A stretch of DNA of 64,000 nucleotides from contig LBRD01000008.1 in assembly GCA_000991245.1 (NCBI GenBank), positions 1,686 to 65,685 on the forward strand, in the 5' to 3' direction. Made by a program: the position numbers and the translations under genes. Under the pieces are notes generated by a model, which did no database searches, was not told the origin of the DNA, and was given only the letters and a program-made list of their open reading frames with translations. Source of the stretch: Parcubacteria group bacterium GW2011_GWC1_36_108 (lineage in GTDB: Bacteria > Patescibacteriota > Minisyncoccia > Moranbacterales > GWC2-37-73). Positions within the stretch are counted from its first letter, which is position 1, and each line of letters opens with the position of its first letter. This document shows, piece by piece, positions 3,503 through 42,173 of this stretch.

Positions 3503-3532
3503 GGTAGAGACGCGATTAATCGCGTCTCTACG
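3503..3532. repeat. REP palindrome variant (gattaat spacer) between the RAYT start and the stop of the giant gene
   Basis: ggtagagacgcgattaatcgcgtctctac is a perfect 11-bp-arm hairpin. The same 28-mer recurs at 20378-20405. Confidence 0.8.
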
Positions 3533-3540: not shown

Positions 3541-6500
3541 TTATTTTCTAATTGTTGTTGTGCCGGTTTCTCTGACTTCAACTTGTCCGAAATGATAAAG
3601 TTGCCCAATTTCATTGGCGGAAAGGGCGCGGTTGTAGATGCGGACATCGTCGATTTTACCATTAAATGTTCGATCTCCTGCAACATTATTTCCAATTGTC
3701 ATTGCTGTAGAACCTGAGCCAACTACCCCAGTCTTGGCTGCGCTAGCAACAGAAACTCCATCCAGATAAATTGAAACATTCGCTCCATCATACACGCAAT
3801 CAACATGATGCCAGCTATTGTATTTTCCAGAAAGCGGACTAGTTGTGCTTCCAACAGCTGTCACGCCAATATCACATTCAAGATTATTACCAACAAACAA
3901 AAAATTATATGAGCTGCCATTTCCTTTTTCAATAATACGACCAAAGCTAGTTCCTATTCCACTTGTTCTTGGATTTATCCAAGCGCTCAAAGTAAGTTGC
4001 GACATACCATCCAAATTATCTTTATCTGGAACTGTTACTACATTAGTCGCCACGCTAAAATCTGTTCCCTGTCCCAACTTCCCAATCGCTTTGGTTGCAC
4101 CGGAAATTGTGCCGTTATTATTATTTCCAGAAGTGTCTTTGGCAGTTGTGCCGGAAATATCTTTGCCGTCAAAGGTCCAATGCCCGACGAGACCAGCGTC
4201 AAGATTAGGCGATGAAATTTGAGATTGCTGCACAACTTCAGAAAATTCATCAGCGCCGATGTCCCAATCTCCAGCGCGACCTTGCCCGTCAATATCCTCG
4301 CCAAAATGCAAATACGAATCAGCTTGTAAATTTAAACCTGTTTTTCTAGCTACAGTATCAGAAACTGAAAGATGGAAATCCTTATTGGCAGCATCAACAA
4401 AAGCTACTGTGGTTGAATTTTTTGAGTTAGCGCCAGGAGCATCAGCAGCGAGGTCGGAGATGTTGTAATCAGACCCAGCTAAAAATGTACCCTTATACCC
4501 ATCCGTTGAACCTTGCACAATATTATTTTTTGCCACAATAGAGGATCCGGCTAAATCATAAATTCCAGCATTTGTTCCCCCATAAACAGTGTTATTGTAA
4601 GCATACAATGTTTTACCTGCACCATCATAATATCGACAAATTCCTGCACTTCCTCCATAAACAATATTATTATAAACATAAGCAGACTTGGGAGTCGTAC
4701 TTTGCCCATCAATTCTAATACCATAACTTGCCCCATAAGAAGATTTGATAATTGAATTTGAAATTTTTACAGCATTAGGCCCGCTTGAAACATACACGCC
4801 ATCATTACCTATATTAAATTGCAAGCCATCAGCCACAAGATACGATGAATTCAACTGGAAAGAACCGTTCACATCTATTCTAAATTTAGTATCGTCCCAT
4901 TTTCCCTGATGTCTTTGGTTTGTATTTGATTCTGTTGTTGTGCTGACTGGGGTATAAATCTTGATATAATTCGCAGGACTTGTTGTATATGCTGATATTA
5001 TTAAATTTGTATTATTCACACTACCATCGTTATAACAAGGTAGGTTTAATTGATAATTTCCTGTTACTAAATTTGAAGTGTTTAGATAATTCACGCCAGC
5101 CGCATAATTAATGCCATTTCCAATGGCGTAATTAATTAAATTGAAGGTGTGTGCAATTGAATTAACAGTTTGCCCAGTGACATTGGTGGGAGTTGCGCCT
5201 GTTGCGGTGATGAGTTTCCACTGCGATGTCGAAATTTTTTCTGAAATATACGCAACTGATGTTGTGTTGTATGTAACTTTATCACCCACTCCCATGTTCG
5301 TCGCAGTCTGCGCCTCGGAAAAAGTCGCAATGCCCGATGCGATAGTCACCGTTGGTGTGCCGGTTTTATGATCGGTAGTATTTTGCCCGACGGAATAATA
5401 AATTGCGGTTGCGGCTTCATCAGCGCCGATATCCCATATTGTACTTGAAGACGATGGGCGTGTTTGTCCATCGATATCATTGGTGAATGCAAGATTAATA
5501 TCCGCTGATAAGTCAGCGCCGGAATTTTTCGCAGCAGTGTCACTAGTGCTTAAGTGGAAATCTTTATTGGCAGGATCAGCAAAAGCGACGGTGGTGGAAT
5601 TTTTAGAATTGGCACCAGGTGCATCGGCGACAAGATCGGAAATATTATAGTTTGAAGATGGGTGAAAATTAGAACTAGTAAAACCATCGATACAATTTTG
5701 AGCAATATTATTCTTTAAAATAGTGTCCATGTACCCATTAGTATAATATCCGACAATTGCATCTTTGACCGTATTATTGTAAACAACAGCACGCAAAACA
5801 TCGCCACCTGCATTTCCACCAATACCTTTTTTAAAGCCGTAAATGATATTATTCCAAACTTTCAAATTAAAATTTCCGGCAGTCAAATTATATTGGATTC
5901 CAAATATATTTGTTCCACCGCTTCCAGCATACTGAAGTATATTGTTTGAAACATAAGAATTTTTATCCATGTCAATTCCAATTTGATCATAGCCAGATGT
6001 AGATGAGTTTTTTATTTGCAAACCATCAACATGTACGAATTGGTTGTTGATGTTAACATTATATGCACCCACACTTGAAACATTTAGGTTGTATTTTCCA
6101 TCATCCCATTTCCCCTGATGTCTTTGGCTTGCATTTGCTTCGGTTGTCGTGCTTATTGGAGTATAAATTCTGATATAGTTTGCTGGCGCAGTAGTATATC
6201 CTGAAACTGTCACTGCGGTAGTATCCGCAGCACTGTCGTAATAACAAGGAAAATTGAGCTGATAATTTCCAGTGACCAAACCGGTGGTATTCAAATGATT
6301 TACATCAACTGCACCTGTAACTGCAGCTGAAAGAGAAGTGTACTCGTGTTTTATTGAAACCACTGTTGAAGTCGTGATGTCTGCAGGAACTGCACCAGTT
6401 TTTGTAACTAAATTCCAAACTGAAGTGGAGGTTTTTGATGCAATATATGCAATGTCAGTTGTGTTATATGTCACCCTATCCCCAACTCCAATATTTCCAG

Positions 6501-9500
6501 TCTGAGCTGCTGAAAAAGTTGCAACTCCACTTGTAATTGTAATAGTTGGTGTGCCAATTTTAAGGTCAGCAACTGATTGCCCGACAGAATAATAGATTGG
6601 GGCTGCAGCTTCGTCGGCACCAATATCCCATATTGTGCTTGAAGATGATGGACGGGTTTGATTGTCGATGTCAGTCGTGAACAAATATGACGAATCTGAT
6701 GACAAATCTACACCAAAATTGCGTGCAGCAGTGTCGGTAGGAGAAAGATGAAAGTCTTTATTAGCAGCATCTGCAAAAGCGACGGTAGTGGAATTTTTGG
6801 AATTAGCTCCTGGAGCATCAGCAGCGAGATCTGAAATATTATAATCAGAAGTAACATTAAATGTTCCCAAAAAACCATCGCCACAATTTTGAGTAATGTT
6901 GTTTTTTAATACAGCTTGACCAATAGTAGAATGTCGAAATCCAACACTTGCTATCAAACGCAATGTATTATTGTATGCATATGAATTAACACCAGACCAA
7001 CTGTCCAGATTCATACCATTATTAACGTTATTGATTATATTATTAGAAATATATGCTCCTCCTGCAGTTGAGCCATTTGCTGAAATACCTGTGCCATTGT
7101 TAGATGGGAACTCGTCATGGATATAATTACTATCAATGGTAATATATTTTATTCCTGGAAAATACAAAGCGGATGAGGCAAACCCTGGATTTCCAAAATC
7201 AGTAATCTCCAAACCGACAAGTTTTACATATGGAATATTTAAAGCAATCGCATTTCCATTGGTTGAAGGATTAATAAGATAATTAACTCCCGTCGCTTTC
7301 CCTTGATGCCTTTGACTCACATTAACTTCAGTAGTTGTGTTATTTGGGGTATATATTTTTATATAATTTGCAGGACCAGTCGTATATCCATCAACCGTCA
7401 CTACTGTTGTGTCTGCGCCAGAATCATAATAGCAAGGGAAATTAAGTTGATAATTTCCCGCTACCAAATCTGCAGTATTTAAGTGAGTAGCATCAACAGC
7501 ACCAGCTTCTGCAGCGGAAAGTGAGGCGTAGGCGTGAGCGATTGAAGTTACATCTGCATCAGTGACAGCGGTCGGAGCAGCGCCTATTGCGCTTTGACAA
7601 CCCCAGACTGTGGTTGAGGTTTTGTTTGTAATATAGCAAGCTCCACCAGTGTATGTTACCAAATCTCCAACGCCCATATTTGTTGCAGTTTGCGCGACTG
7701 AGAAAGTTGCAGTTCTGGCGGTTGCATCAACTGTAACAGTGCCCGCTCCAGTTTCATGTGAGGTTGTGTTTTGTCCGACGGAATAGAAAATTGCGGTTGC
7801 GGCTTCGTCAGCTCCAATATCCCAAGCATTTATAGTTACATTTCGAGTTTGACCATCTATGTCAGTGTTGAAGGTAAAATTAGAATCCGCTGATAAGTCG
7901 CTACCAGAGTTCTTCGCTGATGTGTCACTAGGACTTAAGTGAAAATCTTTATTAACAGCGTCGGCGAAGGTAACGGTTTGATTTATTTTTGCATTAGCGC
8001 CTAGTGCTGATGCATCTTTAGAAAGATTTTTATTTGAAAGACTTGAATAATTAATCGCTGCGCTTCCGTTTGTACAATAATCATATGAACCATTATTATA
8101 TGACAAATTATTAATAGCAACAATGTCATAATAAGATGACTCGCTAATGCCACAATTACTATTGCCATACAAAGTATTATTATAAACAAATGCGCTATTA
8201 TCAAAATAATTACCAATACCTATACCTTTAGACCAACCATACACAATATTATTGTAAATATAAACTTGCGAACTCGATAAAACATTATTTTCTACTATTA
8301 TGCCACTTTCACTACTAGCACCACCAGTATATTTAATAATATTATTTGAAATATCGACCCCTTTATTAGTACCTCCTACAGAAATACCATCAAACCAAGA
8401 ATTATTACCTGTTTGATCAAGTTGTAATCCAGAAATGTATACGTAATTTATATTTGCCAATATTAAATCCATGCTACCACTACGCAAAACATATCTCCCA
8501 TCATCCCATTTCCCTGAATGTCTTTGCGAATTATTCGCTTCAGTTGTAGTGTTGTTTGGTGTATAAATTTTAATATTATTTGATGGCGAAGTTATGTACC
8601 CAGAAACAGTTACCGTAGTTGTATCCGCACCAGAATCATAATAACAAGGAAAATTAAGCTGATAATTTCCAGCAACCAAATCTGTAGTATTTAAATGGGT
8701 GGCATCAACAGCGCCAGCTTCGGCAGCTGAAAGTGAAGAGTACGCGTGTGTGATTGAAACTACAGTTGAATCGGTTATATTAGCAGGAATTCCTCCTGTA
8801 GCGGTTACTAAATTCCAAACAGAAGTAGAAGTTTTTGAGGAGATATATGCAACATCGGTTGTGTTATATGTGACTTTGTCGCCCACTCCCATATTTGTGG
8901 CAGTTTGAGCCACAGAAAAAGTTGCAACTCCAGATGCAATAGTCACGGTTGGCGAACCAGTTTTATGATCATTTGTGTTTTGTCCGACAGAATAATAGAT
9001 TGCAGTGGCAGCCTGATCCGCACCAATGTCGTAGAGACGTCCATTTATGGCGTCTCGCCCCTGTCCATCTATATCAGTCGTGACCGGAAGATTAGCATCC
9101 GCACTCAAATCCGCGCCAGCATTTTTGGCAGCAGTGTCATTTGGAGAAAGGTGGAAGTCTTTATTGGCAGCGTCGGCGAAGGACACAATCGTCTCAATTT
9201 GATCTTGCGCACCGCCTGTATTTGAAGAATCATCAGAAATATTATAGTTAGAAGCAGAATCAAAACTACTAGCGTACGCACTACCTCCTGTGTTTTGCAC
9301 AATGCAATTTTTAATAAGCGGACTATATCCTTCAGTATATATTCCATTTTCAGAGCCGCCAGAACCATAAACGGTATTATTATAAAATACGTTTTGGACA
9401 CTTCCTCCGAATCTTAATGCAACAACCCTGCTTGCTGAGGAACCGTAAAAAATAGAATTCTTTACGCTAGAACCATCTGTACCATATAACTGAATAGCGT

Positions 9501-21155: not shown

Positions 21156-24100
21156 TCACAATTTTTCCTCCATAATTATCCAGTCAAAAGAAACGTCTTC
21201 AGTGACAAGATTCTTTACACTAACAGTAAATCCTTCTCCGAATTTTACTTCGGTGACGGCGATTCCTTGATCAAGGGCTACTTTTGGTGTGATGAAAACT
21301 TTTGAAGAAATATTTGCAGCTTTTGTTTTGACAAAGAAAGTTTTTCCATCGCTCTTTGTGTCATCATCTTTGCCGTCGCCATCCAAATCTTTCTTAATTA
21401 AAGTTATTGATGCATCACCGATTGTGCGAGCTTCTGGGTCTAAGACAGATACGATTAATTTGCCCGTTTCCAAACTTTTGACAGTTAATTTTCCAGCAAT
21501 TGCAATGTCGCCAATATCCTCACCCTGCCCAACACCAAGCAGCATTTTTATCAGTGCAATATCTTGAGTGTTTAAATCAATTTGAGCGATGTTTAATTCA
21601 GAATTTGCCTTGATCTGAAGCTCGGTCATTTGATCTTGTAATGTTTCAGCTAAACTCGTTAGGGAGTTTAGGGAATTTAAGATATTTAAATTGTCATTCT
21701 GAACTTGTTTCAGAATCTGATCAGTGTTTGCCAACTGCGCATCAAGACTTGTTTTTGCAACTGCAACTAATTGATTCACCTGATCTTGAATGTTCATACT
21801 AGCAATGTTTAACGTCACAGCTTCTTCAACTTTTTCCACAGTCAAACTTTGATTTCTGCGTGAAATCAAAACTTGAATTGTTCCTTTTTCTCCAGCAAAT
21901 GATTGAATCGCAACACCAACAGTTGATTCGCCCGCATTAGCTTTTCGCAAATATCCGGCAGACTCTGCAGCTGTCAAATTGTCTCCGATTTGAATTACGC
22001 CATTTTCAGTGGAAACTTTTCCAGGAACCTGTCCGAGCATACCGATTATTTTGTAATTTGGATCATTATCGCGCTCGGTTCCATTTCCATTTCCAACAAT
22101 AGACGGATTTGAAGAAACAATACCCATCACATTATTATCGCCAGAACGTGTGCAGCGTTCAACTGAATTTGCGTTAGTTACATCAACACAAACAACTTCT
22201 CCAGACTGAAGATCAATATCTTTAGTATAAAAATATTCCGCATAATCAGCGCCGTTTGTTAGATAACCGTTTTTAGAATTAATTTTAGAAGAAGCGTGCT
22301 GGACATCCAAAATGTATCCCGGAGTTGTTGTGCCGATACCAACACCAAGCGCATTCATTCCACCTGCACCATCAGAAGTTCCATATAATGTTAACATCGC
22401 GTTTCCATCAAGACTTGCTGTGTAGCTATTAACCACGCCAACAGTTGAAGCAGTTGTTACTGCCATATCAATCCAGCTTATTATTCCAGAATCTGCAGAA
22501 AATTCCTGCGTTCCGATAGAAAGACTTCCGATGCTTGTCACGCCACTTGTATCGATTGAGAATTGACTCGTGCCTGCAATTCCATTGCCTGCAAAAATTT
22601 TGAATTTGTTTGAATCAGTCACATCAACTCCCATTGAGAATTGTTGAGCGCCCGCGCCAAGTCGGAAATAGTTATTTGTGTTATCCCAATAAAGGTTGGC
22701 GTTATTTTGGTCATAAATTCCACTTGCGCCTGCAAAAACTAACGAACCTTGAGTGAATTGAGTGGTTGAACCTGTGCCACCATGAGTCACATCGATTGCG
22801 GTTCCGTTCCAAACTCCAGTTGTTATTGTGCCAAGCGTTGTGATTGAACTTGCGCCAGTCCATGTTCCACCAGCAATTGCAGCCAACTCTGCATTATATC
22901 CTTGGACATTTGTTCCGATTGCAAGTCCAAGATTTGTCCTAGCTGTTGCCGCATCAGTCGCGCCAGTTCCACCATTAGCAACAGCAACCGTACCGGAAAG
23001 ATAGGCAGTTGCATCCCAGCTCCAAACTCCGGCAGTGTTTTTCAGTAAACCGTTTGTTGAAGCTGTTGGTAAAGTATATGTTATATCAGCTGCCTGATCT
23101 CCACCTTGCAAATATGAATAGTATGTTGGAGTTGTGCCTGTTTCAATCAAACCAAGTTTTGCTCCCATTTTTACTGCTAAATTAGAAGTGTTACCGTCAC
23201 CACTGGAAGTTCCATAAATCGTCAGCATTACATTTCCATCAAGCATCGCTCCATAACTTTCAACCGTTCCGTTTGTTGCAGCTGACGTTACAGGCATATC
23301 AGTCCATGAAATTGCTCCTGAATTTTCAGCAAATGATTGCGCGCCAAGTTGAAGACTTGCAATGTTCGTCACTCCATTTGTATCTATCGTAAACTGACCA
23401 GTTCCCGCAATTCCACTTCCAGTTGCAATCTTAAATTTGCTTGAATCAGTCGCATCAACACCCATTGAAAATTGTTGAGCGCCCGCGCCAAGTCGGAAAT
23501 AGTTATTTGTATTATCCCAATAAAGGTTGGCATTATTTTGATCATAAATTCCAGAAGCTCCCGCAAAAATTAATGAGCCTTGAGTAAATTGAGTCAATGT
23601 TCCAGAACCACCACTAGTAACCGGTAAAATTCCAGTAACATTTGTTGAAGCTAAATTGATTGCATTAGCAGTTATTTCCTGACCACTTAATGACAAATAA
23701 TTTTCTCCTGCTATGGTTGCAGAGCTGTGAATTGCTGTACTACTCCAGGTCGGAACTCCAGCGACCAAGGTTAAAACTTGCCCATCCGAACCACGAGTAA
23801 TTTTTCCAAGTGTTGAGGTAGTATCCGCATACAACATATCGCCAATAGAATAAGATGCATAACCAGTTCCACCATATTGCGCACCAAGAGCAGTAGAAAG
23901 TGTCAATGAATTGAATGCCACATCTGATGTTGTGTTGATTGTTTGTGGAAGTGAAATCGTAACTGCACCATTTGCAGCTGAAACAGCAACTTGATTAGCA
24001 GTTCCAGCCAAACTTGTCACTCCAGAGTTAGCAATTGAAATTGAACCAGCTCCATTAGTGATAGAAATTCCAGTGCTGGCGGTTAATGTTGCCAAATCAT

Positions 24101-27100
24101 ATCCTGCTCCATTTCCAATTAACAATGTTCCACTAGCTGCACTTGCACCATTAACACCCGTGCCACCATATTGAGCACCAATTGCACTTCCTTGCCAAGC
24201 ACCAGCCACGACCTGACCGGAAGCATTAACTTGAAAAGCATCGTTTGTTCCAACTGTGAAAAGTGAAGCGGGGGTGTTATCACCAATACCAAAATTTCCT
24301 TGATTAACAACTGTGTATCTACTTGATTGAAAAAGTATATCACTTCCAGATCCAGTTAATAATCTTACGCCACTTCCAGCTAAGGTATTACCAATACTTA
24401 ATTGACTACCTGTTTTAAATATACTGCCATTCACATTTATATTTCCATCGACTTCAAGAGCTTCATTAAGGGTTGCAGTTCCAATCCCCAACCTCTTGGC
24501 TATATTATCCCAAAATAAATTACTATTATCTTCAGAATAAATTCCACTAGCTCCAGCAAAAACCAAAGAGCCAGGCGTGAATGCTCCTGCTCCTGTGCCT
24601 CCATTGGCAACTGGTAAAATTCCAGAAACATTAGACGAAGCTAGGTTAATAGCGCCTGCGGTAATTTGTTGATCAATAATAGAAAGATAATTTTCACCGG
24701 CAAGTGTCACCTGGTCATGCACTGAAGCTGATGTTATATAACCAGAGTCATTCGTCCACATTGAAATATTTCCAGACTTGTTAGTCAAGGTATCAGTGCT
24801 TGAAGCGGTAATATACCCCGCGCTAGCATGATCTCCCCAACCATAAGCAGAATTCCAGTTGGTTATATTGGTGCCAGTAATTCCATTTGCAGCAGAAGCA
24901 ACAAAGATTGGATCGGTTTCAGAAAAACTAGTTAAATAACCCTCACTAGCATGATCTCCCCAACCATAAGCAGTGTTCCAATTGGATGAAGATGATATAT
25001 ATGTGTCATTTATTGCAGTACCTTGCCAAATACCAGCAATGACTTGACCGGAAGTGTTAACTTGAAAAAGATCATTGTTTCCGACTGTAAGCATTGATGC
25101 TGGCGAACTATCACCAATTCCCACATTACCAGTATCTGCATCTATCACCATTAATTCATTTGCTCCAGCTGCTTGCAAATCGCCACCCCTATTAAATGTA
25201 AACTTAGTAAGTTGATGTCCAAAAAATTGATAATTAAATGCGTCTGGTGTTCCAATTCCCATTTTCATAGTTGGAAGAGTGCCATAGATATTAACAGCTG
25301 CTCCTCCGGTATAATTTCCAAAGGATAATTTTGCTCCTGGAGTAATCGTTCCAATTCCCAATCTCTTGTTTGTATTGTCCCAAAATAAATTATCATTATC
25401 TTCAGAATAAATTCCACTTGCTCCTGCGAAAACTAAAGAGCCAGCCGTGAATGTTCCTGCTCCAGTACCTCCTCTTGAAACATTCAAATATTGTTCATTG
25501 CCAAGTGTATTTGTGCCTGTCCAATATGTTACATATCCATTAACGCCTGTGCCTGTGATTCCGCCAACCCCAGAAACCGTTGAACATTGCCAGTCTTTTC
25601 CTGTATTATCCCAAGCTAAAACCTCATTGTTTGCACAACCCTGCAACAATGACAGTTGATTATTCAAAGCGCCGGAAAATTGCATTCCAGAAAAAGATGA
25701 GGTGCTAGCAGTTCCACCATTTGCAGAAAGAAGTGCAATTGAAAGCGTGCCGGTTTCTGTAATTGGTCCTCCTGTAAGACCATTGCCAGAGGCAACATTT
25801 GTTACTGTTCCAATTCCACCACTTCCACCTTCTACTGTTCCCCAATACAAATTACTACTTGCATCAATTTTTAAAACCTGCCCGGATGATCCCGCTGCTG
25901 TTGGAAGTGTGTATGCAATGTCACCAGCTTGTGTTCCACTATTTTGAAAAGCAGTTTTATATGTTCCTGATTTTATATTAAGCGCACCATCAATTGTTGT
26001 TCCTGCGAATGTTGGAGAACTTGTTGTCTGTAAGTTTTGATTTATTGAAACATTTGCTCCGGAAATAGTAAGTGTTCTCGAACTGGTTCCTCCGGCAATT
26101 GTAAATCCATCAGCCGCGGAGGCAAGTGTCAGGCCGTTAACAGTTGAAGGCGTAATACTTCCGAGTGTCAGTGTGATAGCTGGAGTTGTTGTTGCATTTG
26201 CAACTGTTCCGGAAATTCCGTTGGCAGTTGTTACTGAAACTGTTGTGACCGTTCCATTTCCATTGGCAACAATATTTCCATTCAATTTCTGAATAGCCTG
26301 TAAAATTGAATCCGTAGCAGCAATTGTGCCAGCGCCTGACACATAATTTGTGAGTAATTTTCCAGTGACTGCGATGTCAGTGAATGATGCGCTTGGAAGT
26401 GCGTTGGTTGCTAGTGTTCCTTGAGCGCTAGTTGCATACGCTGTTGATGCCGTGAATGCTGCCGTTCCTAGAAGTCCTGTGACTGAATTTAGATTTGCAA
26501 CTGTAGCTGTCATTCCTGTTAGGTTCGTAGCGGTAGCAGCATTTCCGGTTGTGTTTTGATTTAGAGTTGGAACATCGGCTACTGCAATTGCTCTCATGGT
26601 TGGCATTCCTGCTGATCCGTTTGGAGCAGCCCAGAAAAAGTTTGCGGTGCTTGATGAAAATGCTGGAGCGTATGATGAAGCTGCTGTATAAGCGGCAGTT
26701 CCGAGTGTTCCACCTGTTGTAACCGTAAGAGTTTGACCAGCTGCAATGTTTAAAGTGTTTGTTCCGTTGGCTGTAACAGTAAGACCATTGTATGTTTTTC
26801 CGGTAAGCGCTGAAGCAATTTTATTGTCCGCTATCGCAGTTGCATTCCAAGTTCCAGTTGCAATTGTTCCAAGCGTTGTGATATTTGTTGAACCTGCCCA
26901 AGTTGAAAGCGCAATATCTTCAACACTTCCAAGTCCAATATCACTTTTCGTAAGAGTTACCCAAACAAGGTCTGCGCCTGCACCATTTGATTTCAAAAGT
27001 TGTCCAGAAGTACCAGGTCCAAGTAGTGACCAAGTTGGAGATACTCCTTGACCAGCAATTATCGCTCCACGAGTTACAGCAGCAGCAGTCGTATCAGAAT

Positions 27101-29027
27101 GTGAAGTTGAAAGAAATGGATGAGCGCTTCCAGCAACTGATCCCCAGGTTGGAACTCCACCAACGATTGTTAGTGCTTGACCATTAGCTCCGATTGCACG
27201 ACGCGAAAAAGTATTGCCACTGGAATAATACAATATATCACCAGCACTGTATGTTGAAAGTCCGGTGCCACCATTAGCAATTGTCAGTGGCGAAGTAAGA
27301 GAAAGAGAAGCAAAAGTAGCATCAGCCGTGGTTGAAATATTTTGCGGAAGAGAAATAGTAATAACACCAGTATTAGCTGAGGCGGTTATTTGATTTGCTG
27401 TTCCATTAAGCTGCGTTACTCCCGTATTTGCAATACTAATTGTTCCAGGCCCATTAGTAACAGAAATTCCAGTGCTACCACTCAATGTTGCCAAAGAATA
27501 ATTTGTTCCATTTCCGATTAATAATTGTCCACTGGCAGGCGCAGTAGAAAGTCCAGTTCCACCTTTTGCAATTCCCAAAATAGCAAGTTCCGTTAAAGTG
27601 TTTCCTGCTCCCCAAACTGCCAAATTATTTTGTGTTCCACTTCCCGTCACACCTCCTGCGCCCAAAACTGAAACCCAACTTGGCAAATGAGTAATCGGAT
27701 CAATCATTAAAACTTTACTATCAGCACCAACATTAGAAAGCTTGCTAAGCGTGTTTGCTGCACTGGAATAAAGCAGGTCTCCAGCAGCATAAGTATTTAT
27801 CCCAGTTCCGCCACGCACAGCGCTGATTGTGCCACCATTCCAAACACTGGCAGCGTTTGCAAAATTCCAAGCGCCAGTTATAACTTCATTTTGATTTTTT
27901 CTTGTAATACCAGAATTAGCATAATCAATTCCTATTGTTGCGATATTGCTAGCCAAACTAAAAGTAAAATCGCTAGTTCCATTAAATGCCAGGGTGTTAA
28001 AATTGATTTCCTCAATTGCTTCCTCGCCGTTTACTTTGATGACAGCCATTGATGCCCCAACAAAATTAGAGCATTTCCAAACCTTAGCACCATTGTCCCA
28101 ACTTAAAACCTGACTATTGGCACATCCTTGAAGCAATGTTAGTTGATCTGAAGAATCTCCCGCAAATTCAAGCCCTGAAAATGATTGGGTTGTTGCTGTT
28201 GTTCCATTTGCAGCGTTCAAAATATCAGCTATTCCTAAATTTGAAAAATTAACACCATTATTCGAATACTGCCAACTTCCCAAAGCTCCATTAAATCTAA
28301 TCGTAGGTTTGTTCAGAGCATTTCCAACTGCCAAATCAAAATTATTTCCAGCAAGTTCACCACCTGAACCAATATTAAAAACTAGATTTGTGCTGCCAGT
28401 ATCAGTGTTTTGCAAATGAATATCATCAATATTGCTAAAACGTGAATCGTTACCTAAAACCAATTGATTGCTGCCAGTTCCCGTTGGCAACATCTTGATG
28501 TCTATTTTACCTTTTGCTCCAAGTTGCGGGATATTACCTTCACTTGTTCCCAAGGTTGCACCGCCAAGAGCAGCTGAATCCATAGCAAGAGCAACTGAAC
28601 TCATTTTTTTGCGAGGAACAAATTCACTATCGGAGTTCATTCTGATTCCAAGATAATATTCGTTGTTAGAAAAATTCAAATCAGCAGGAAGAGGAACAAC
28701 TGCACCAAGATATGCACTCAAAACTCCATCGCGAATATAAATTTTCTGTGTCTCTTGCCAAGCTCTTTGAGAAGCGTCGCTATCAGATGGATATGGATCG
28801 GTGCTACTTCGATCAGTTCGATACAAAGCAAAACGAATTTCATATTCTCCATTTTGCAAAGATTCATTTTTTTCATTAGAAACAAAAGCTGAAATATTTA
28901 TTTGTGGTGCAATCTGAGCGCGAGAAAATTTAAAACCAAATGCAAGCAATGCAAAAGCAAAAAAAGATATTAGCGCTATTGAAATTTTATTTTTATTATT
29001 ACTCATTATCAGAAAAATAATACCCAC
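21156..29027 (-). CDS. Giant surface protein (2623 aa) with an N-terminal signal/TM, repeated GGTG-motif fibre-like repeats (similar to phage tail-fibre repeats), and a C-terminal coiled-coil plus beta-rich domain
   Basis: N-terminus MSNNKNKISIALISFFAFALLAFGFKFSRAQ. Repeats contain LPVANGGTGAGAFTPGSLVFAGASGIYSEDNSNLFWDN, ANGGTGLSTY and VAVANGGTGATDAATARTNLGLA. Long near-identical internal DNA repeats occur, e.g. ~22580-22760 versus ~23420-23600. The C-terminus has ~150 aa of heptad-rich coiled coil. Confidence 0.8.
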   Translation of the reverse strand: MGIIFLIMSNNKNKISIALISFFAFALLAFGFKFSRAQIAPQINISAFVSNEKNESLQNGEYEIRFALYRTDRSSTDPYPSDSDASQRAWQETQKIYIRDGVLSAYLGAVVPLPADLNFSNNEYYLGIRMNSDSEFVPRKKMSSVALAMDSAALGGATLGTSEGNIPQLGAKGKIDIKMLPTGTGSNQLVLGNDSRFSNIDDIHLQNTDTGSTNLVFNIGSGGELAGNNFDLAVGNALNKPTIRFNGALGSWQYSNNGVNFSNLGIADILNAANGTTATTQSFSGLEFAGDSSDQLTLLQGCANSQVLSWDNGAKVWKCSNFVGASMAVIKVNGEEAIEEINFNTLAFNGTSDFTFSLASNIATIGIDYANSGITRKNQNEVITGAWNFANAASVWNGGTISAVRGGTGINTYAAGDLLYSSAANTLSKLSNVGADSKVLMIDPITHLPSWVSVLGAGGVTGSGTQNNLAVWGAGNTLTELAILGIAKGGTGLSTAPASGQLLIGNGTNYSLATLSGSTGISVTNGPGTISIANTGVTQLNGTANQITASANTGVITISLPQNISTTADATFASLSLTSPLTIANGGTGLSTYSAGDILYYSSGNTFSRRAIGANGQALTIVGGVPTWGSVAGSAHPFLSTSHSDTTAAAVTRGAIIAGQGVSPTWSLLGPGTSGQLLKSNGAGADLVWVTLTKSDIGLGSVEDIALSTWAGSTNITTLGTIATGTWNATAIADNKIASALTGKTYNGLTVTANGTNTLNIAAGQTLTVTTGGTLGTAAYTAASSYAPAFSSSTANFFWAAPNGSAGMPTMRAIAVADVPTLNQNTTGNAATATNLTGMTATVANLNSVTGLLGTAAFTASTAYATSAQGTLATNALPSASFTDIAVTGKLLTNYVSGAGTIAATDSILQAIQKLNGNIVANGNGTVTTVSVTTANGISGTVANATTTPAITLTLGSITPSTVNGLTLASAADGFTIAGGTSSRTLTISGANVSINQNLQTTSSPTFAGTTIDGALNIKSGTYKTAFQNSGTQAGDIAYTLPTAAGSSGQVLKIDASSNLYWGTVEGGSGGIGTVTNVASGNGLTGGPITETGTLSIALLSANGGTASTSSFSGMQFSGALNNQLSLLQGCANNEVLAWDNTGKDWQCSTVSGVGGITGTGVNGYVTYWTGTNTLGNEQYLNVSRGGTGAGTFTAGSLVFAGASGIYSEDNDNLFWDNTNKRLGIGTITPGAKLSFGNYTGGAAVNIYGTLPTMKMGIGTPDAFNYQFFGHQLTKFTFNRGGDLQAAGANELMVIDADTGNVGIGDSSPASMLTVGNNDLFQVNTSGQVIAGIWQGTAINDTYISSSSNWNTAYGWGDHASEGYLTSFSETDPIFVASAANGITGTNITNWNSAYGWGDHASAGYITASSTDTLTNKSGNISMWTNDSGYITSASVHDQVTLAGENYLSIIDQQITAGAINLASSNVSGILPVANGGTGAGAFTPGSLVFAGASGIYSEDNSNLFWDNIAKRLGIGTATLNEALEVDGNINVNGSIFKTGSQLSIGNTLAGSGVRLLTGSGSDILFQSSRYTVVNQGNFGIGDNTPASLFTVGTNDAFQVNASGQVVAGAWQGSAIGAQYGGTGVNGASAASGTLLIGNGAGYDLATLTASTGISITNGAGSISIANSGVTSLAGTANQVAVSAANGAVTISLPQTINTTSDVAFNSLTLSTALGAQYGGTGYASYSIGDMLYADTTSTLGKITRGSDGQVLTLVAGVPTWSSTAIHSSATIAGENYLSLSGQEITANAINLASTNVTGILPVTSGGSGTLTQFTQGSLIFAGASGIYDQNNANLYWDNTNNYFRLGAGAQQFSMGVDATDSSKFKIATGSGIAGTGQFTIDTNGVTNIASLQLGAQSFAENSGAISWTDMPVTSAATNGTVESYGAMLDGNVMLTIYGTSSGDGNTSNLAVKMGAKLGLIETGTTPTYYSYLQGGDQAADITYTLPTASTNGLLKNTAGVWSWDATAYLSGTVAVANGGTGATDAATARTNLGLAIGTNVQGYNAELAAIAGGTWTGASSITTLGTITTGVWNGTAIDVTHGGTGSTTQFTQGSLVFAGASGIYDQNNANLYWDNTNNYFRLGAGAQQFSMGVDVTDSNKFKIFAGNGIAGTSQFSIDTSGVTSIGSLSIGTQEFSADSGIISWIDMAVTTASTVGVVNSYTASLDGNAMLTLYGTSDGAGGMNALGVGIGTTTPGYILDVQHASSKINSKNGYLTNGADYAEYFYTKDIDLQSGEVVCVDVTNANSVERCTRSGDNNVMGIVSSNPSIVGNGNGTERDNDPNYKIIGMLGQVPGKVSTENGVIQIGDNLTAAESAGYLRKANAGESTVGVAIQSFAGEKGTIQVLISRRNQSLTVEKVEEAVTLNIASMNIQDQVNQLVAVAKTSLDAQLANTDQILKQVQNDNLNILNSLNSLTSLAETLQDQMTELQIKANSELNIAQIDLNTQDIALIKMLLGVGQGEDIGDIAIAGKLTVKSLETGKLIVSVLDPEARTIGDASITLIKKDLDGDGKDDDTKSDGKTFFVKTKAANISSKVFITPKVALDQGIAVTEVKFGEGFTVSVKNLVTEDVSFDWIIMEEKL

Positions 29028-29087: not shown

Positions 29088-29936
29088 TTACTTCTTCAGA
29101 GCCCAACCAAAAATACTTTCCATTTCACTAGAAATCAATTCAATCACTGATACCGGTTTTGAACCTGTATAAACGGCAATCGCATCAGAAACAGAAACAT
29201 TGCCACTCCTATCAGTAACACTAACCGTAAAAACATATCTGGTAGCTTGCTCAAGATTATTCAAAACCAATGCATGTGAAAATCCATATCCATATTCTTT
29301 GATGTTTTTTTCTGCCCCTTTTCCATCTTTAGCATATTTAACTTCGGATTTTGCCAATTTGTTTGTTTTCCAAGAAATAAGCACCTGCATTTTTTTTCCA
29401 TCTTTTGTCATAAGCATTTCACTGCGAACATCCATTGCTTTTAGTGGTAATGCTTCTGTCTCAGCAGCCAGCACGATGTTTGCACCACCGATTGCAATGT
29501 CTTTGATTTTATAATTCTCACTCTTTCCTGCGATGCCTTTTAAATCATCGCCTGCAACAACGACAGCATTTTGCTCTTTGCTCACATTTCCAGATTCATT
29601 AACAAAAATATGATCTTCGTTTTTTGGTATTTCCATTTGCACCTGTTGTTTTACTGCGCTTGATTGCTGGGCGTTTTTATTTCTAAAATATACAGCTGCA
29701 CTTGCAGCAATCATCATCAATAACAAAAATGAAATGCCCGCAATTTTTAAAACTTTTTTCTTAAGTTCCATTTTTTTACTAAAAGCTTGAAATTTCAATT
29801 CTGCTTGATTATTCTCAACACCAAAATGAGCATCCTTGCCAACTGGAACACTCTCAATATTTTCAACTATTTTTGGTTGTTTTTTTTCTTTTTCCTTTTT
29901 CAATTTTTTACATTTTTCCGAATAAAAATTGAACAC
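29088..29936 (-). CDS. Membrane-anchored protein with a C-terminal FN3/Ig-like beta-sandwich; its C-terminal tail is homologous to the tail of the 61928.. ORF
   Basis: TM segment IAGISFLLLMMIAASAAVYF. The C-terminus …ATRYVFTVSVTDRSGNVSVSDAIAVYTG…SEMESIFGWALKK parallels …GTVYNFKVKSIDASGNEAISNDFALLTP…FTEIFGWAKF. Confidence 0.55.
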   Translation of the reverse strand: MFNFYSEKCKKLKKEKEKKQPKIVENIESVPVGKDAHFGVENNQAELKFQAFSKKMELKKKVLKIAGISFLLLMMIAASAAVYFRNKNAQQSSAVKQQVQMEIPKNEDHIFVNESGNVSKEQNAVVVAGDDLKGIAGKSENYKIKDIAIGGANIVLAAETEALPLKAMDVRSEMLMTKDGKKMQVLISWKTNKLAKSEVKYAKDGKGAEKNIKEYGYGFSHALVLNNLEQATRYVFTVSVTDRSGNVSVSDAIAVYTGSKPVSVIELISSEMESIFGWALKK

Positions 29937-30059
29937 AAATATCTAACTAAATTATACTATTTTTTCCCGTTTTAGACAACAATTTAATATTTCAATTTTT
30001 GGCTTAAAAAAAGCAAATTTTAACAAAAATAAAAAGTTATCCACACCCATATTTGCCAA

Positions 30060-30086
30060 ATAAAAAATCCCGACAAAATGCCGGGA
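30060..30086. terminator. Bidirectional rho-independent terminator (hairpin tcccgacaaaatgccggga with A-run upstream and T-run downstream) 3' of gyrB
   Basis: aaaaaatcccgacaaaatgccgggattttttt. Confidence 0.6.
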
Positions 30087-30161
30087 TTTTTTTGAAAATT
30101 TTTGAGTTTTATTTTTGCTTTTTATTGATATCAAACAAACCAAGCCTACAACACAATAACT

Positions 30162-30279
30162 TGTCATCTTGAGCGGAATTGAGACCGATAGGTCGAAATG
30201 AAGTCGAAAGATCTGGGCTCAGATTCTTCGATTCCGCAGCTTCTCCCTAGGGTCGAAGCTGCTACACTCAGAATGACAT
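30162..30279. repeat. Structured ~118-nt element (copy A) of the TGTCAT…ATGACA family
   Basis: tgtcatcttgagcg…agtcgaaagatctg…gctgct…ctcagaatgaca shares termini and two 14-nt blocks with copy B at 42084-42173. Confidence 0.6.
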
Positions 30280-30308
30280 ACTGACAGTAATTTAGTTAAT
30301 TCAGTATT

Positions 30309-32408
<2,100 letters not shown>

Positions 32409-40160: not shown

Positions 40161-40961
40161 TTATCCTAACATAAAAAACCAATATTTAAGGGCTGGAAAC
40201 ATTTGCGGAAGAATGATTACCAGAAAAGTTCCTGTAATCAAAAAAGGTGCAAAAGGAACTTGGCTTTTCATTGTTTTCTTGCTAATAGCAATAAGTCCAA
40301 CACTGATTAGCGCGCCGATTGTAAACGAAAGCATCAGCGCCACAATAATATTAGGCCAACCAACAACCATCCCTACTAAAAGTCCGAGATAAGCATCGCC
40401 ATATCCCATCCATGTTTCTTTGGAATATGCTGCCAGTGACCAGAAAAATCCGCCCGCTACCAATCCGCCGACTATTCCTGAAATCGTGCGCAAATCCAAA
40501 ATTGAAGTTGCAAAACCAAAATTTTGCCAATCAGAAAAAAGAAAAAATGCCAAACTCACTCCAACTCCAAGCCACAAAATCAGCATCGGAATTTCCATAT
40601 ATCTGAAATCATACACGAAAATAATCATCAGAATTGAAAATGAAATCAAATAATACATTGTCAGCATCCAACTCGAAAGATCGAGCACATTGAAAAAATA
40701 ATTTCCTATGAGCGCAAAAACAATTCCAGTCATAGCTTCGACAACTGGATATTGCCAAGAAATTTTTTCGCCGCAATCTCTGCATTTTGCGCTAAGCAAA
40801 ACGAAACTAAGGAGCGGCACATTATCGAACCATCTGACTTTCTTTTTGCAATTTGGACAATGACTCCTCTCCATCAAAGATTCCACCGCATTCAAGCGAT
40901 ACACAACCGCATTCAAAAAACTTCCGATAATAAGTCCAAGGATGAGGAAAATAATAAGCAT
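40161..40961 (-). CDS. pilD: Prepilin peptidase (A24 family); start probably at MLIIFLILG
   Basis: N-terminal Zn-binding CPNC…CRDC pairs, and a polytopic membrane domain with GYGDAYLGLLVGMVVGW. The ORF is open upstream to 41012, through repeat element C. Confidence 0.85.
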   Translation of the reverse strand: MLIIFLILGLIIGSFLNAVVYRLNAVESLMERSHCPNCKKKVRWFDNVPLLSFVLLSAKCRDCGEKISWQYPVVEAMTGIVFALIGNYFFNVLDLSSWMLTMYYLISFSILMIIFVYDFRYMEIPMLILWLGVGVSLAFFLFSDWQNFGFATSILDLRTISGIVGGLVAGGFFWSLAAYSKETWMGYGDAYLGLLVGMVVGWPNIIVALMLSFTIGALISVGLIAISKKTMKSQVPFAPFLITGTFLVIILPQMFPALKYWFFMLG

Positions 40962-40972
40962 AATATTGTCTG

Positions 40973-41059
40973 TGTCATTCCGGACTTGATCCGGAATCCC
41001 GAGCTTTGGCACACAGGCCTTTCTGCCACGAGAGATACTGAAACAAGTTCAGTATGACA
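40973..41059. repeat. Structured ~87-nt element (copy C, divergent) with TGTCAT…ATGACA termini in the pilD 5' region
   Basis: tgtcattccggacttgatccggaatcccgag…cagtatgaca, with an internal 8-bp hairpin attccgga-cttga-tccggaat. Confidence 0.4.
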
Positions 41060-42083: not shown

Positions 42084-42173
42084 TGTCATCTTGAGCGATT
42101 CGTCAGCAGACGAAGAGTCGAAAGATCTGAACCCGGATCCTCACGTCGCACTGCTGTGCTCCTCAGGATGACA
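42084..42173. repeat. Structured ~90-nt element (copy B) of the TGTCAT…ATGACA family, immediately 5' of a pilin gene
   Basis: tgtcatcttgagcgattcgtcagcagacgaagagtcgaaagatctg…gctgctgtgctcctcaggatgaca. Confidence 0.6.

What the first reader, a model, noticed from the sequence alone, without database searches (positions are those of the whole stretch)
30162..30279. Family of ~90–120-nt structured elements with TGTCAT…ATGACA termini in promoter regions
Copy A (30162-30279, between gyrB and the 282-aa gene) and copy B (42084-42173, directly upstream of a pilin gene) share identical termini and two identical 14-nt blocks (tgtcatcttgagcg; agtcgaaagatctg), plus ctcag[a/g]atgaca ends. A more divergent copy C (40973-41059) with the same termini sits on the 5' end of pilD.

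All three are moderately GC-rich islands in AT-rich DNA and lie in 5' leader/promoter positions of minus-strand genes. They could be a MITE with 6-bp TIRs or a cis-regulatory / small-RNA element.
Basis: seen in the sequence. Interest (0 to 1): 0.6.

Follow-up and report, generated by a model that had tools for sequence, protein, structure and literature searches.

The report
TGTC-tagged palindromic repeats (REP dimers)
The three elements are real copies of a small palindromic repeat found across many bacterial phyla (the CGTC/TGTC-tagged REP superfamily); they were inserted into untranslated regions only in this Moranbacteria lineage, so they are selfish or neutral DNA, not a conserved promoter or RNA switch.

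Summary
A (30162-30278), B (42084-42173) and C (40973-41059) exist. A and B share two exact 14-mers and TGTCAT…ATGACA ends.

They are not promoter elements. Each is a head-to-head dimer of hairpin units with an unpaired 5' TGTC tag and a stem that starts A-T, T-A. This is the CGTC/TGTC-tagged REP superfamily of Di Nocera et al. 2013, which includes Neisseria dRS3 and Rickettsia RPE-4/-6.

- **Fit to the family:** C's arms and a fourth, solo unit inside a giant gene (21692-21720) fit the published architecture exactly. A/B arms are a bulged variant, TGTC-ATYYT-GA-GCG…-GA-ARRAT.
- **Distribution:** The simple form of that variant, with a GCGNAGC apex, was found in genomes assigned to more than 15 phyla, in metagenomes and in 40 viral contigs.
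- **Lineage-specific insertion:** Related Moranbacteria with the same gene order lack A, B and C at the same sites. One relative carries a C-type copy where the window has none.
- **Mobility signals:** No target-site duplication and no linked transposase were found. Within-arm pairing is compensated in 98.6% of cases, against 77% for between-arm pairing.

The mobilising enzyme is unknown here, as in the literature.

The parts
30162..30278 (.). Copy A core: a head-to-head dimer of two TGTC-tagged hairpin arms. The left arm is 30162-30215 on the + strand and the right arm is 30220-30278 read on the - strand. Each arm carries an extra nested hairpin.
   Evidence: Sequence and fold. Arm stems ATCTT/AAGAT and ATTCT/AGAAT are compensated within each arm but mismatched between arms. 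Absent from the orthologous gyrB-downstream spacer in L127, L129, L130 and L131.
30135..30304 (.). Probable full extent of the A-type repeat unit (about 172 nt). It is the core plus about 27 nt of AT-rich outer inverted repeats, which are decayed in this copy. It abuts the gyrB stop codon (30309-30311).
   Evidence: L270 3055-3224 and L282 986-1157 share only this 172-nt segment, at 89% identity. Three-way alignment. The outer flanks pair in L270 but not in the window copy.
42084..42173 (.). Copy B: a head-to-head dimer. The left arm is 42084-42131 on the + strand with stem ATCTT/AAGAT. The right arm is 42130-42173 on the - strand with stem ATCCT/AGGAT. It lies between two pilin genes, 15 nt upstream of the ATG at 42068.
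   Evidence: Absent from the same pilin-pilin spacer in L296 and L298 and not seen in L297, although an upstream block of about 55 nt is conserved in L296 and L298. A B-type relative in L273 lies 7 nt before an ATG.
40973..41059 (.). Copy C: a head-to-head dimer of two canonical units. One is TGTC-ATTCCGGA-CTTGA-TCCGGAAT-CCC (40973-41001, + strand). The other is TGTC-ATACTGAA-CTTGT-TTCAGTAT-CTC (41059-41031, - strand). It sits in the pilD leader, 11 nt before the ATG at 40961.
   Evidence: DNA folds show an unpaired 4-nt tag, an 8-bp stem and a 5-nt loop, with z-scores of -3.5 and -3.3. Census. Absent upstream of pilD in L296-L298, where the TGnTAAAAT -10 element is conserved.
21692..21720 (+). 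Solo canonical unit TGTC-ATTCTGAA-CTTGT-TTCAGAAT-CTG. It lies inside the 2623-aa ORF 21156-29027 (- strand) and is read through in frame as …DQILKQVQNDN….
   Evidence: 0.32 such units expected per shuffled window. The sister ortholog (80% identical overall) is locally divergent with a 7-aa gap exactly here.

Best explanation
A, B and C are head-to-head dimers (tags outside) of TGTC-tagged repetitive palindromes. They belong to the CGTC/TGTC-tagged REP superfamily. The 29-nt unit at 21692 is a solo member.

**Shown**
- Each arm is a hairpin preceded by an unpaired TGTC. Its stem begins A-T, T-A and it is followed by a short CYN tail.
- C and the solo unit have the canonical 8-bp stem and 5-nt loop.
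- In A/B-type arms the top of the stem is replaced by tandem G·A mismatches. The apex is GCGNAGC in the simple form. In A and B it is expanded by a nested hairpin.
- The copies are lineage-specific insertions into transcribed but untranslated DNA: the gyrB 3' end, the pilin intercistronic leader and the pilD leader. One further unit is inserted in frame in a giant surface-protein gene.
- They have no target-site duplication and no linked gene.

**Inferred**
- The element acts as DNA. Each arm folds on single-stranded DNA, for example on the lagging-strand template or in a transcription bubble.
- GCGNAGC is the unusually stable DNA mini-hairpin motif, which supports a DNA-level structure.
- A trans-acting enzyme that reads tag plus hairpin would cut and rejoin the element, as RAYT/IS200-type HUH tyrosine transposases do with GTAG REPs.
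- That enzyme is not identified here. The literature finds no dedicated transposase for CGTC REPs.

**Consequence for the host (inferred)**
- The copies are mostly neutral passengers that survive where they do not break genes.
- B and C add stable stem-loops to the pilin and pilD leaders. A adds one to the gyrB 3' UTR. These could change mRNA stability or translation as a side effect.
For: **Architecture**
- TGTC tag, AT-first stems and tails are seen.
- They match the published definition: the CGTC tag is often TGTC, stems are 8-9 bp and almost always start with A-T pairs, loops are 4-5 nt, there is a 3-nt tail, HH dimers predominate, intragenic copies occur and no transposase is associated (PMC3733652).

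**Family size and spread**
The loci come from Acidobacteriota, Bacteroidota, Chloroflexota, Clostridia, Planctomycetota, Verrucomicrobiota, Gemmatimonadota, Actinomycetota, Aquificota, Nitrospirota, Synergistota, Armatimonadota, Patescibacteria and others.
- It also hit 40 viral contigs.
- The ATCTT subtype hit at least 120 metagenome contigs.

**The arm is the conserved unit**
- In 185 elements, intra-arm pairs are Watson-Crick in 730 of 740 cases, against 570 of 740 for inter-arm pairs. 76 elements are heterodimers.
- With an anchor that does not specify the stem, stem position 3 is C-G in 49 arms, T-A in 65, G-C in 4 and G·T in 1. The apical N is free: A 48, C 40, G 18, T 13.
- GCGNAGC with any N is the DNA mini-hairpin, with Tm 70-76 °C (PMC13037366).

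**Gain and loss at orthologous sites**
- A is absent in L127, L129, L130 and L131.
- B and C are absent in L296-L298, where gene order and neighbouring signals are conserved.
- A C-type copy lies between gatC and gatA in L127-L129 but not in the window.
- The solo unit coincides with a local indel in an otherwise 80% identical protein.

**Other**
- An in-frame insertion sits in RecG of a Parcubacteria genome.
- There is no TSD signal and no recurrent neighbouring gene.
Against: - The mobilising enzyme and the DNA-level mechanism are inferred by analogy only.
- The only Y1 transposases seen (window 2900-3502 and L096) are flanked by GTAG-type REPs, not TGTC units.
- A/B arms do not meet the published stem and loop dimensions. 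Their local folds are not significantly better than shuffles under nearest-neighbour parameters. Their placement in the superfamily therefore rests on the tag, the AT-first compensated stem, the tail, the equal 21-nt body length and the dimer arrangement.
- A and B share arm ends but not internal hairpins, so they are not recent copies of one another.
- All strains of this species that were sampled carry A, B and C. No ongoing transposition is shown.
- B, C and L273 all lie 7-15 nt upstream of start codons. With n = 3 this could hint at a function or a target preference.
- Part of the family statistics comes from sequences ascertained with patterns that fixed the outer ends.
Confidence: 0.75

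Rival explanations
1. A cis-regulatory RNA or small RNA. The four-way-junction fold of A and B (a closing stem plus three hairpins) would be a functional RNA structure controlling the pilin, pilD and 282-aa genes.
For: - The folds are strong (z = -5.1 and -3.3). A and B keep the same junction layout although hairpins 1 and 3 differ in sequence.
- B, C and the L273 relative sit 7-15 nt before start codons, downstream of promoter-like sites.
- All three copies lie in transcribed regions.
Against: - There is no Rfam match, even at E ≤ 10.
- The elements are absent from the same leaders in sister species that keep the flanking signals.
- A lies in the gyrB 3' region, upstream of a terminator-like hairpin, not in a leader.
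- Both strands fold about equally well.
- Pairing is conserved within arms, not in the closing stem.
- G·T pairs are not enriched over mismatches in the arm stems, 5 against 5.
- Family members occur in unrelated contexts, including coding sequence and phage tail-gene spacers.
Confidence: 0.1
2. A classical MITE: an internally deleted DDE-type insertion sequence with TG…CA-type terminal inverted repeats, moved by cut-and-paste by the parent IS.
For: - TGTC…GACA ends resemble the TG…CA termini of DDE transposons (my own recollection, not tested).
- The size is 87-172 nt, with inverted ends and a dispersed, polymorphic distribution.
Against: - Direct repeats of 2-5 nt at the junctions occur at chance frequency in 208 copies.
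- Heterodimers keep intra-arm complementarity and lose inter-arm complementarity. This is not expected if a transposase reads two equivalent duplex ends.
- Solo units and tandem arrays of single ends exist.
- No transposase was found between or next to copies.
- Arm sequences are conserved across phyla, whereas MITE/IS pairs are normally lineage-restricted (recollection, not tested).
Confidence: 0.08
3. Structural or transcription-termination hairpins that arise or are maintained in place, with no transposition. They would be convergent or recombinationally spread terminator-like palindromes.
For: - In Hymenobacter and some others the element sits in the centre of an A-tract/stem…stem/T-tract palindrome. 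9 of 208 copies have at least 8 of 10 complementary flank bases, against 0.5 expected.
- A follows a stop codon. REPs are known to accumulate at 3' ends (PMC3733652).
Against: - A, B and C have no T-tract. B and C precede genes.
- A separate terminator-like hairpin follows A and is conserved without it in the sister species.
- Near-identical 25-28-nt arm sequences across phyla cannot be convergent.
- A 172-nt unit is shared at 89% identity by otherwise unrelated loci.
Confidence: 0.05

Closest known systems
CGTC-tagged REP superfamily, families CGTC-1 to -4 (Di Nocera, De Gregorio & Rocco 2013, BMC Genomics 14:522). According to that paper it includes Neisseria dRS3 and Rickettsia conorii RPE-4 and RPE-6.
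   Same: - Unpaired terminal tetranucleotide. The paper states that CGTC is changed to TGTC in many repeats.
- Stems start with complementary A-T pairs, followed by a 3-nt tail.
- Head-to-head dimers with spacers of 20-100 bp.
- Intergenic location between unidirectional or convergent genes.
- In-frame intragenic copies, notably in DNA-repair genes. Here that is RecG in L065.
- No associated transposase.
- Copy C and the solo unit have exactly the 8-bp stem and 5-nt loop format.
   Different: - A/B-type arms have a 5-bp stem, tandem G·A mismatches and a GCGNAGC apex or an inserted hairpin. This lies outside the published ranges of 8-9-bp stems and 4-5-nt loops.
- Tails are mostly CTN rather than CCA.
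- The paper reported five phyla: Proteobacteria, Chlorobi, Bacteroidetes, Spirochaetes and Thermotogae. This subtype was found in many more, including Patescibacteria, and in viral contigs.
- The consensus sequences in the paper's figures could not be read, so identity with a listed family could not be checked.
GTAG REPs / REPINs mobilised by RAYTs (Nunvar 2010; Bertels & Rainey 2011; Ton-Hoang 2012)
   Same: - Tag plus hairpin units.
- Inverted doublets forming a long hairpin of about 100 nt.
- Singletons and clusters also occur.
- No target-site duplication.
- Mainly extragenic.
   Different: - The tag is TGTC, not GTAG.
- No Y1 transposase is flanked by these units. The window's own RAYT-like gene (2900-3502) is flanked by GTAGAGACGC…GCGTCTCTAC repeats instead.
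- The arm sequence is conserved across phyla, whereas REPINs are usually species-specific (recollection, not tested here).
Rickettsia palindromic elements inserted in frame in genes (Ogata et al. 2000)
   Same: Palindromic repeats that are tolerated in frame inside protein-coding genes. Examples here are the solo unit in the giant ORF and the 39-codon insertion in RecG of L065.
   Different: - Translations of A, B, C and the L065 insert match no NCBIfam or Pfam model.
- Most copies here are intergenic.
- The host is a free-living or episymbiotic Patescibacteria bacterium, not Rickettsia.
Bacterial MITEs such as Correia/NEMIS, ERIC and QMITE2
   Same: Small, non-autonomous, with inverted ends, hairpin-forming when transcribed, and sometimes placed in UTRs.
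   Different: No target-site duplication and no cognate IS. The unit is a tagged hairpin rather than a pair of duplex ends.

Membership tests
CGTC/TGTC-tagged REP superfamily (PMC3733652) | Unpaired terminal tetranucleotide CGTC (variants TGTC, CCTC) at one end of the palindrome | tested here: met
   TGTC precedes all seven arms in the window: 21692, 30162, 30278(-), 40973, 41059(-), 42084 and 42173(-). It is unpaired in the arm folds of C, the solo unit, A-left and B-right. It is present in 112 of 119 arms found with an anchor that does not include the tag, although the loci were ascertained with tagged patterns.
CGTC/TGTC-tagged REP superfamily (PMC3733652) | Stem of 8-9 bp whose first two pairs are A-T and T-A | tested here: inconclusive
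   Met by C's two arms and the solo unit, which have perfect 8-bp stems. A/B arms start A-T, T-A, but the continuous stem is 5 bp, followed by tandem G·A and a second helix.
CGTC/TGTC-tagged REP superfamily (PMC3733652) | Loop of 4-5 nt | tested here: inconclusive
   C and the solo unit have 5-nt loops: CTTGA, CTTGT, CTTGT. Simple A/B-type arms have a 3-nt GNA loop. A and B themselves carry inserted hairpins.
CGTC/TGTC-tagged REP superfamily (PMC3733652) | Short unpaired 3-nt tail (consensus CCA) at the untagged end | tested here: inconclusive
   A tail is present but differs from the consensus: CCC and CTC in C, CTG in the solo unit. Across the family the counts are CTC 51, CTG 19, CTA 13, CCC 13 and CCA 6.
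CGTC/TGTC-tagged REP superfamily (PMC3733652) | Predominantly head-to-head dimers (tags outside), partners 20-100 bp apart | tested here: met
   A, B and C all have tags at the outer ends. The same holds for the roughly 200 full elements collected from the loci; the search patterns used to find them required tags at both outer ends.
CGTC/TGTC-tagged REP superfamily (PMC3733652) | No transposase gene associated with the repeats | tested here: met
   No recurrent protein family was found next to copies. RAYT-like hits occur once in 2.15 Mb of loci and are flanked by GTAG repeats. Genes bracketed by elements are ordinary. This is absence of evidence within about 2 Mb, not a whole-genome test.
REPIN / RAYT system | GTAG (GTRG) tag on the REP, and REPs flanking a RAYT gene | tested here: not met
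   The tag is TGTC. The window's Y1_Tnp gene (29.5 bits) is flanked by GTAG-tagged palindromes of unrelated sequence.
Classical (DDE-type) MITE | Target-site duplication of fixed length flanking the terminal inverted repeats | tested here: not met
   Direct repeats of 2-5 nt occur at chance level in 208 copies. None flanks A, B or C.
Classical (DDE-type) MITE | A parent insertion sequence with the same ends | not testable with these tools
   Pattern searches span at most 600 nt, so pairs of ends 1-3 kb apart could not be scanned. None was seen in the loci held.
Rickettsia palindromic element protein-level families (RPE models in NCBIfam) | The translated element matches an RPE domain model | tested here: not met
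   Ten translations of A, B, C and the L065 insert gave no NCBIfam or Pfam match at E ≤ 10. I did not confirm that RPE models are in this library copy.
Any curated structured-RNA family (Rfam 15) | Covariance-model match at or near the gathering score | tested here: not met
   Only tRNAs reach the gathering score in the window. The best hits over the elements are 11-18 bits, far below the cut-offs.
Intrinsic terminator | GC-rich hairpin immediately followed by a T-tract | tested here: not met
   The scan reports no terminator-like site overlapping A, B or C. Terminator-like sites lie elsewhere in the same spacers.

The most novel reading that the evidence does not exclude
The A/B-type repeat (TGTC-ATYYT-GA-GCGNAGC-GA-ARRAT-CTN) may be an undescribed, nearly pan-bacterial family of single-stranded-DNA hairpin elements. 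Its recognition core would be the ultra-stable d(GCGNAGC) mini-hairpin flanked by sheared G·A pairs. It would be moved by an enzyme that is not a RAYT, either an unrecognised nuclease/recombinase or a housekeeping replication or repair activity present even in roughly 1-Mb Patescibacteria genomes. It may be carried between hosts on phage DNA. This family could then be used to identify the transposase that has been missing for CGTC-type REPs since 2013.
Probability: 0.25. Interest if true: 0.7.

Novelty: new member of a known kind. Interest (0 to 1): 0.4.

Why it matters
**For annotating this window**
- The three GC-rich islands should be masked as repeats. They should not be read as promoters, riboswitches or small RNAs.
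- They explain over-long ORF calls, such as the GTG-started 283-aa pilD.
- They also explain odd peptide segments such as …ILKQVQND… in the giant protein.

**More broadly**
- CGTC/TGTC-tagged REPs are a described but little-studied superfamily with no known mobilising enzyme.
- This work extends it to Patescibacteria, to more than ten further phyla and to viral contigs.
- It shows clean insertion/empty-site pairs between closely related genomes.
- It shows that selection or recognition acts on the individual arm hairpin, whose apex matches the DNA mini-hairpin motif.
- These points give concrete handles for finding the enzyme: oligonucleotide substrates, and phylogenetic profiling of copy number against gene content.

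Tried and rejected
- **Rfam** at gathering and at E ≤ 10: nothing but tRNAs and noise.
- **Full-text searches for arm sequences** (GTCATCCTGAGCG, CTGAGCGAAGCGAAG and variants): only unrelated primer hits.
- **'MITE' plus 'Patescibacteria' search:** nothing relevant.
- **Coxiella QMITE1/2:** different elements (GTAG REP, 7-11-nt direct repeats), but that paper's reference list led to the CGTC paper.
- **Supplements of the CGTC paper:** they hold no sequences, so exact family assignment was not possible.
- **Pfam and NCBIfam on translations:** no match.
- **Linked gene:**
  - All-against-all clustering of 2321 ORFs around 120 genome copies found no recurrent family.
  - tblastn with the window's RAYT found one unrelated hit.
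  - Pfam on ten genes bracketed by elements found housekeeping and phage genes only.
- **PLSDB plasmids:** one partial arm hit, in Planktothrix.
- **Strand or wobble test for RNA:** uninformative for inter-arm pairs, because each heterodimer necessarily gives one G·T and one A·C.
- **Position relative to genes in low-GC loci:** n = 14, mixed convergent, unidirectional and intragenic, with no 5'-UTR rule.
- **Strains with identical gyrB or pilin:** all carry the elements, so no within-species polymorphism was found.
- **Rejected on sequence and by Rfam:** hammerhead or other ribozyme, integron attC and Tn402-like ends.

Full report

Yes. Copy A (30162-30278) and copy B (42084-42173) begin with the identical 14-mer TGTCATCTTGAGCG. 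Both contain the identical 14-mer AGTCGAAAGATCTG and end in CTCAGRATGACA. Each 14-mer occurs exactly twice in the 64-kb window.

Copy C (40973-41059) shares only the TGTCAT/ATGACA ends. The three copies are 49-53% G+C in a 38% G+C window. They fold far better than shuffled sequences, about equally well on both strands.

**2. Gene context**

The window is a Candidatus Moranbacteria-type (Patescibacteria) contig; part of it matches GCA_000990595.1 contig LBTM01000010. All relevant genes are on the minus strand:
- a type IV pilus operon (pilM…pilB, pilT, pilC, three pilins, pilD, pseudopilins);
- then ligA, gatC, gatA;
- then gyrB (30309-32390) and a 282-aa gene (29088-29936).

The three copies sit as follows:
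- **A** starts about 30 nt after the gyrB stop. It lies upstream of a terminator-like hairpin (30063-30095), a TTATCCACA DnaA-box-like motif (30039-30047) and the TTGTCT-17-TATAAT site of the 282-aa gene. It is therefore a gyrB 3'-end element, not a promoter element.
- **B** lies between two pilin genes, 15 nt before the ATG at 42068.
- **C** lies 11 nt before the pilD ATG at 40961. The 283-aa GTG-started ORF that overlaps C is an over-extension; gene callers give 266 aa. C is downstream of a TTGGCA-18-TGnTAAAAT promoter-like site.

**3. Anatomy**

C consists of two units that each fold on their own:
- TGTC-ATTCCGGA-CTTGA-TCCGGAAT-CCC on the + strand;
- TGTC-ATACTGAA-CTTGT-TTCAGTAT-CTC on the - strand.

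Each has an unpaired 4-nt tag, a perfect 8-bp stem beginning A-T, T-A, a 5-nt loop and a short tail.

A scan for this architecture found one more unit, TGTC-ATTCTGAA-CTTGT-TTCAGAAT-CTG at 21692-21720. Shuffled windows give 0.32 such units.

A and B arms have the same tag, the same AT-first stem and the same tail. The stems are ATCTT/AAGAT, ATTCT/AGAAT and ATCCT/AGGAT. Above five base pairs the arm continues as GA…GA mismatches enclosing a further helix.

**4. The wider family**

It also retrieved 40 IMG/VR contigs. The ATCTT subtype retrieved at least 120 metagenome contigs.

The common form is TGTCATYCTGAGCGNAGCGAAGRATCTN, then a 30-60-nt variable core, then the inverted complement of that arm. 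The simple arm body is 21 nt, the same length as the canonical unit: ATTCT-GA-GC-GNA-GC-GA-AGAAT against ATTCTGAA-CTTGT-TTCAGAAT.

I re-extracted arms with an anchor that fixes only AT…GAGCGNAGCGA…AT:
- 112 of 119 arms carry TGTC;
- stem position 3 is C-G in 49 arms, T-A in 65, G-C in 4 and G·T in 1;
- the apical N is free (A 48, C 40, G 18, T 13).

GCGNAGC with any N is the DNA 'mini-hairpin', with two G-C pairs, a sheared G·A pair and Tm 70-76 °C (PMC13037366). I take this as an indication, not proof, that the structure matters as single-stranded DNA.

**5. Which pairing is conserved?**

In 185 two-armed elements, 76 are heterodimers whose two arms use different stem variants.
- Pairs within an arm are Watson-Crick in 730 of 740 cases.
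- Pairs between arms are Watson-Crick in only 570 of 740 cases.

A and B are themselves heterodimers of this kind. So the long 'closing stem' and the four-way junction follow from placing two related hairpins head to head. They are not the conserved feature.

**6. Are the copies conserved at their sites or inserted?**

Related Moranbacteria keep the same gene order.
- The gyrB-downstream spacer of L127/L129 (neighbour protein 75% identical), L130 and L131 lacks A. It keeps the terminator-like hairpin, the DnaA-box-like motif and the -10 region.
- The pilin-pilin spacer of L296 and L298 keeps an upstream block of about 55 nt but lacks B. No B-type element was detected in L297.
- The pilD leaders of L296-L298 keep TGnTAAAAT but lack C.
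- Conversely, L127-L129 carry an 87-nt C-type dimer between gatC and gatA, where the window has a 41-nt spacer.
- The solo unit lies in a giant surface-protein gene. The sister ortholog is 80% identical overall but is locally unalignable there, with a 7-aa gap.
- In a Parcubacteria genome (L065), a 115-nt A/B-type element is read through as a 39-codon in-frame insertion inside the helicase domain of RecG.
- A's relatives in L270 and L282 share 172 nt at 89% identity and nothing else. The unit that spread therefore includes about 27 nt of AT-rich outer inverted repeats on each side. These are decayed in the window copy.

**7. Mobility signatures**
- No target-site duplication: 2-5-nt direct repeats occur at chance level in 208 copies.
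- In a minority, mostly Hymenobacter, the flanks are unique inverted repeats with A- and T-tracts. The element then sits in the loop of a terminator-like palindrome. 9 of 208 copies show this, against 0.5 expected.
- Tandem arrays of single ends occur.
- No gene family recurs next to copies.
- The window encodes a 200-aa Y1 (IS200-like) transposase at 2900-3502. It is flanked by GTAGAGACGC…GCGTCTCTAC palindromes, which makes it a typical RAYT with GTAG REPs, not TGTC units. The same is true of the only other RAYT-like gene in the 2.15 Mb of loci.

**8. Comparison with what is known**

Di Nocera, De Gregorio and Rocco (2013; PMC3733652) sorted REPs into GTAG- and CGTC-tagged superfamilies. For CGTC repeats they report:
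[quoted passage not shown] - mainly head-to-head dimers, with tags outside;
- location between unidirectional or convergent ORFs;
- intragenic copies, notably in replication and repair genes;
- equivalence to Neisseria dRS3 and Rickettsia RPE-4/-6;
- no associated transposase;
- presence in five phyla.

C and the solo unit meet every structural criterion. A/B arms meet the tag, AT-first-stem, tail and dimer criteria but not the stem and loop dimensions. The authors themselves note that bulged classes probably escaped detection.

I therefore file the finding as new members of this known superfamily. A/B belong to a bulged, GCGNAGC-cored family that I could not find described.

**9. Mechanism**

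Shown: tag-plus-hairpin units, lineage-specific insertion without target duplication, tolerance in UTRs and in frame in genes, and no linked gene.

Inferred: excision and insertion as single-stranded DNA by a trans-acting enzyme that recognises the tag and the hairpin, by analogy with RAYT/IS200 enzymes on GTAG REPs. The enzyme is unknown. The rivals (regulatory RNA, classical MITE, in-place terminator hairpins) are each contradicted by at least one direct test above.

Effects of B and C on the pilin and pilD mRNAs, and of A on the gyrB 3' end, are possible but untested.

**10. Verdict**

This is a real repeat family, correctly spotted. It is ordinary in kind: a REP-like selfish palindrome from a published superfamily. 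It has some new detail: a new host phylum, a new arm variant, clean empty sites and arm-level compensation. It also bears on an old open question, namely what moves CGTC-type REPs.

Noticed in passing
window 2830-3531 (- strand): A 200-aa IS200-like Y1 transposase gene (2900-3502; Pfam Y1_Tnp 29.5 bits; HUH motif in …MPNHVHVVIEI…). It is flanked by GTAG-tagged palindromes GTAGAGACGCnnnnnnnnGCGTCTCTAC at 3502-3531 and 2830-2893. This is a RAYT/REPtron-like unit of the other (GTAG) REP superfamily, in a Patescibacteria genome.
   Followed up: partly
window about 3130-3195 (- strand), inside the RAYT-like ORF: A copy of the same GTAG palindrome doublet lies in frame inside the transposase gene itself, encoding …CVETQNFASLQCLTDFASLP…. 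It sits after the HUH motif and before the C-terminal …WQPRFYDHVIRNDESL… segment. The Pfam match covers only residues 31-111.
   Followed up: no
window 30039-30047: A perfect TTATCCACA (DnaA-box consensus, from memory). It lies in the gyrB to 282-aa spacer, within the block CTGTGGATAACTTTTT that is invariant in all four related lineages aligned.
   Followed up: no
window 30063-30095: A bidirectional terminator-like hairpin (AAAAAATCCCGGCATTTTGTCGGGATTTTTT). It is conserved in the sister species with a G·T to A-T change in the stem. The consensus terminator scan did not report it.
   Followed up: partly
window 40951-40978 (- strand): The terminal ATGACA of copy C, with a 16-nt spacer and TATTAT, scores 10 of 12 as a promoter-like site. 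The element end resembles a -35 hexamer, so insertions might occasionally create promoters.
   Followed up: no
window 25623-25654 (- strand), inside ORF 21156-29027: TGTCATTGTTGCAGGGTTGTGCAAACAATGAG has a TGTC tag and an AT-first stem of about 9 bp with one bulge. It may be a second degenerate solo unit in the giant gene, or it may be chance in AT-rich DNA.
   Followed up: no
L127 9733-9800 (sister species, after the gyrB stop): Where the window has copy A, the sister species has an unrelated short hairpin, CTCTCCTCAGATGAGGAGAG. Its origin is unknown.
   Followed up: no
L270 895-948, 3679-3813, 5709-5760, 7784-7846, 8078-8204: The same CPR-like contig that holds an intact A-type element carries further repeat families. 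One is another TGTC-tagged type (GTGTCATTGCGAGTCGGTACTCCGACGTGGCAATC). Another is a repeat of about 50-60 nt (CTAGACTGCCACGCAAATTCCGAGTAC…) present in both orientations and also in L282.
   Followed up: no
L034 5890-6000; L103 1690-1775: Tandem arrays of a single element end (GCTCAGGATGACA plus 10-17 nt) with periods of 30 and 23 nt, next to a complete element.
   Followed up: no
L042, L052, L066, L089, L111, L114 (Hymenobacter) and L049: The element sits exactly in the centre of copy-specific palindromes with an A-tract on one side and a T-tract on the other, like bidirectional terminator stems. This suggests insertion into hairpin loops or selective survival there.
   Followed up: partly
L138 1055-2490, and the same arrangement in L139, L164 and L165: In IMG/VR contigs, elements occupy successive intergenic spacers between phage tail-region genes, bracketing a 376-aa ORF (Pfam was not run on this ORF). 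The family therefore also resides in phage or prophage DNA.
   Followed up: partly
window 3541-12495 and 21156-29027 (- strand): Two giant ORFs of 2984 and 2623 aa, with repetitive, surface-protein-like sequence. The sister ortholog of the second is 2887 aa.
   Followed up: no
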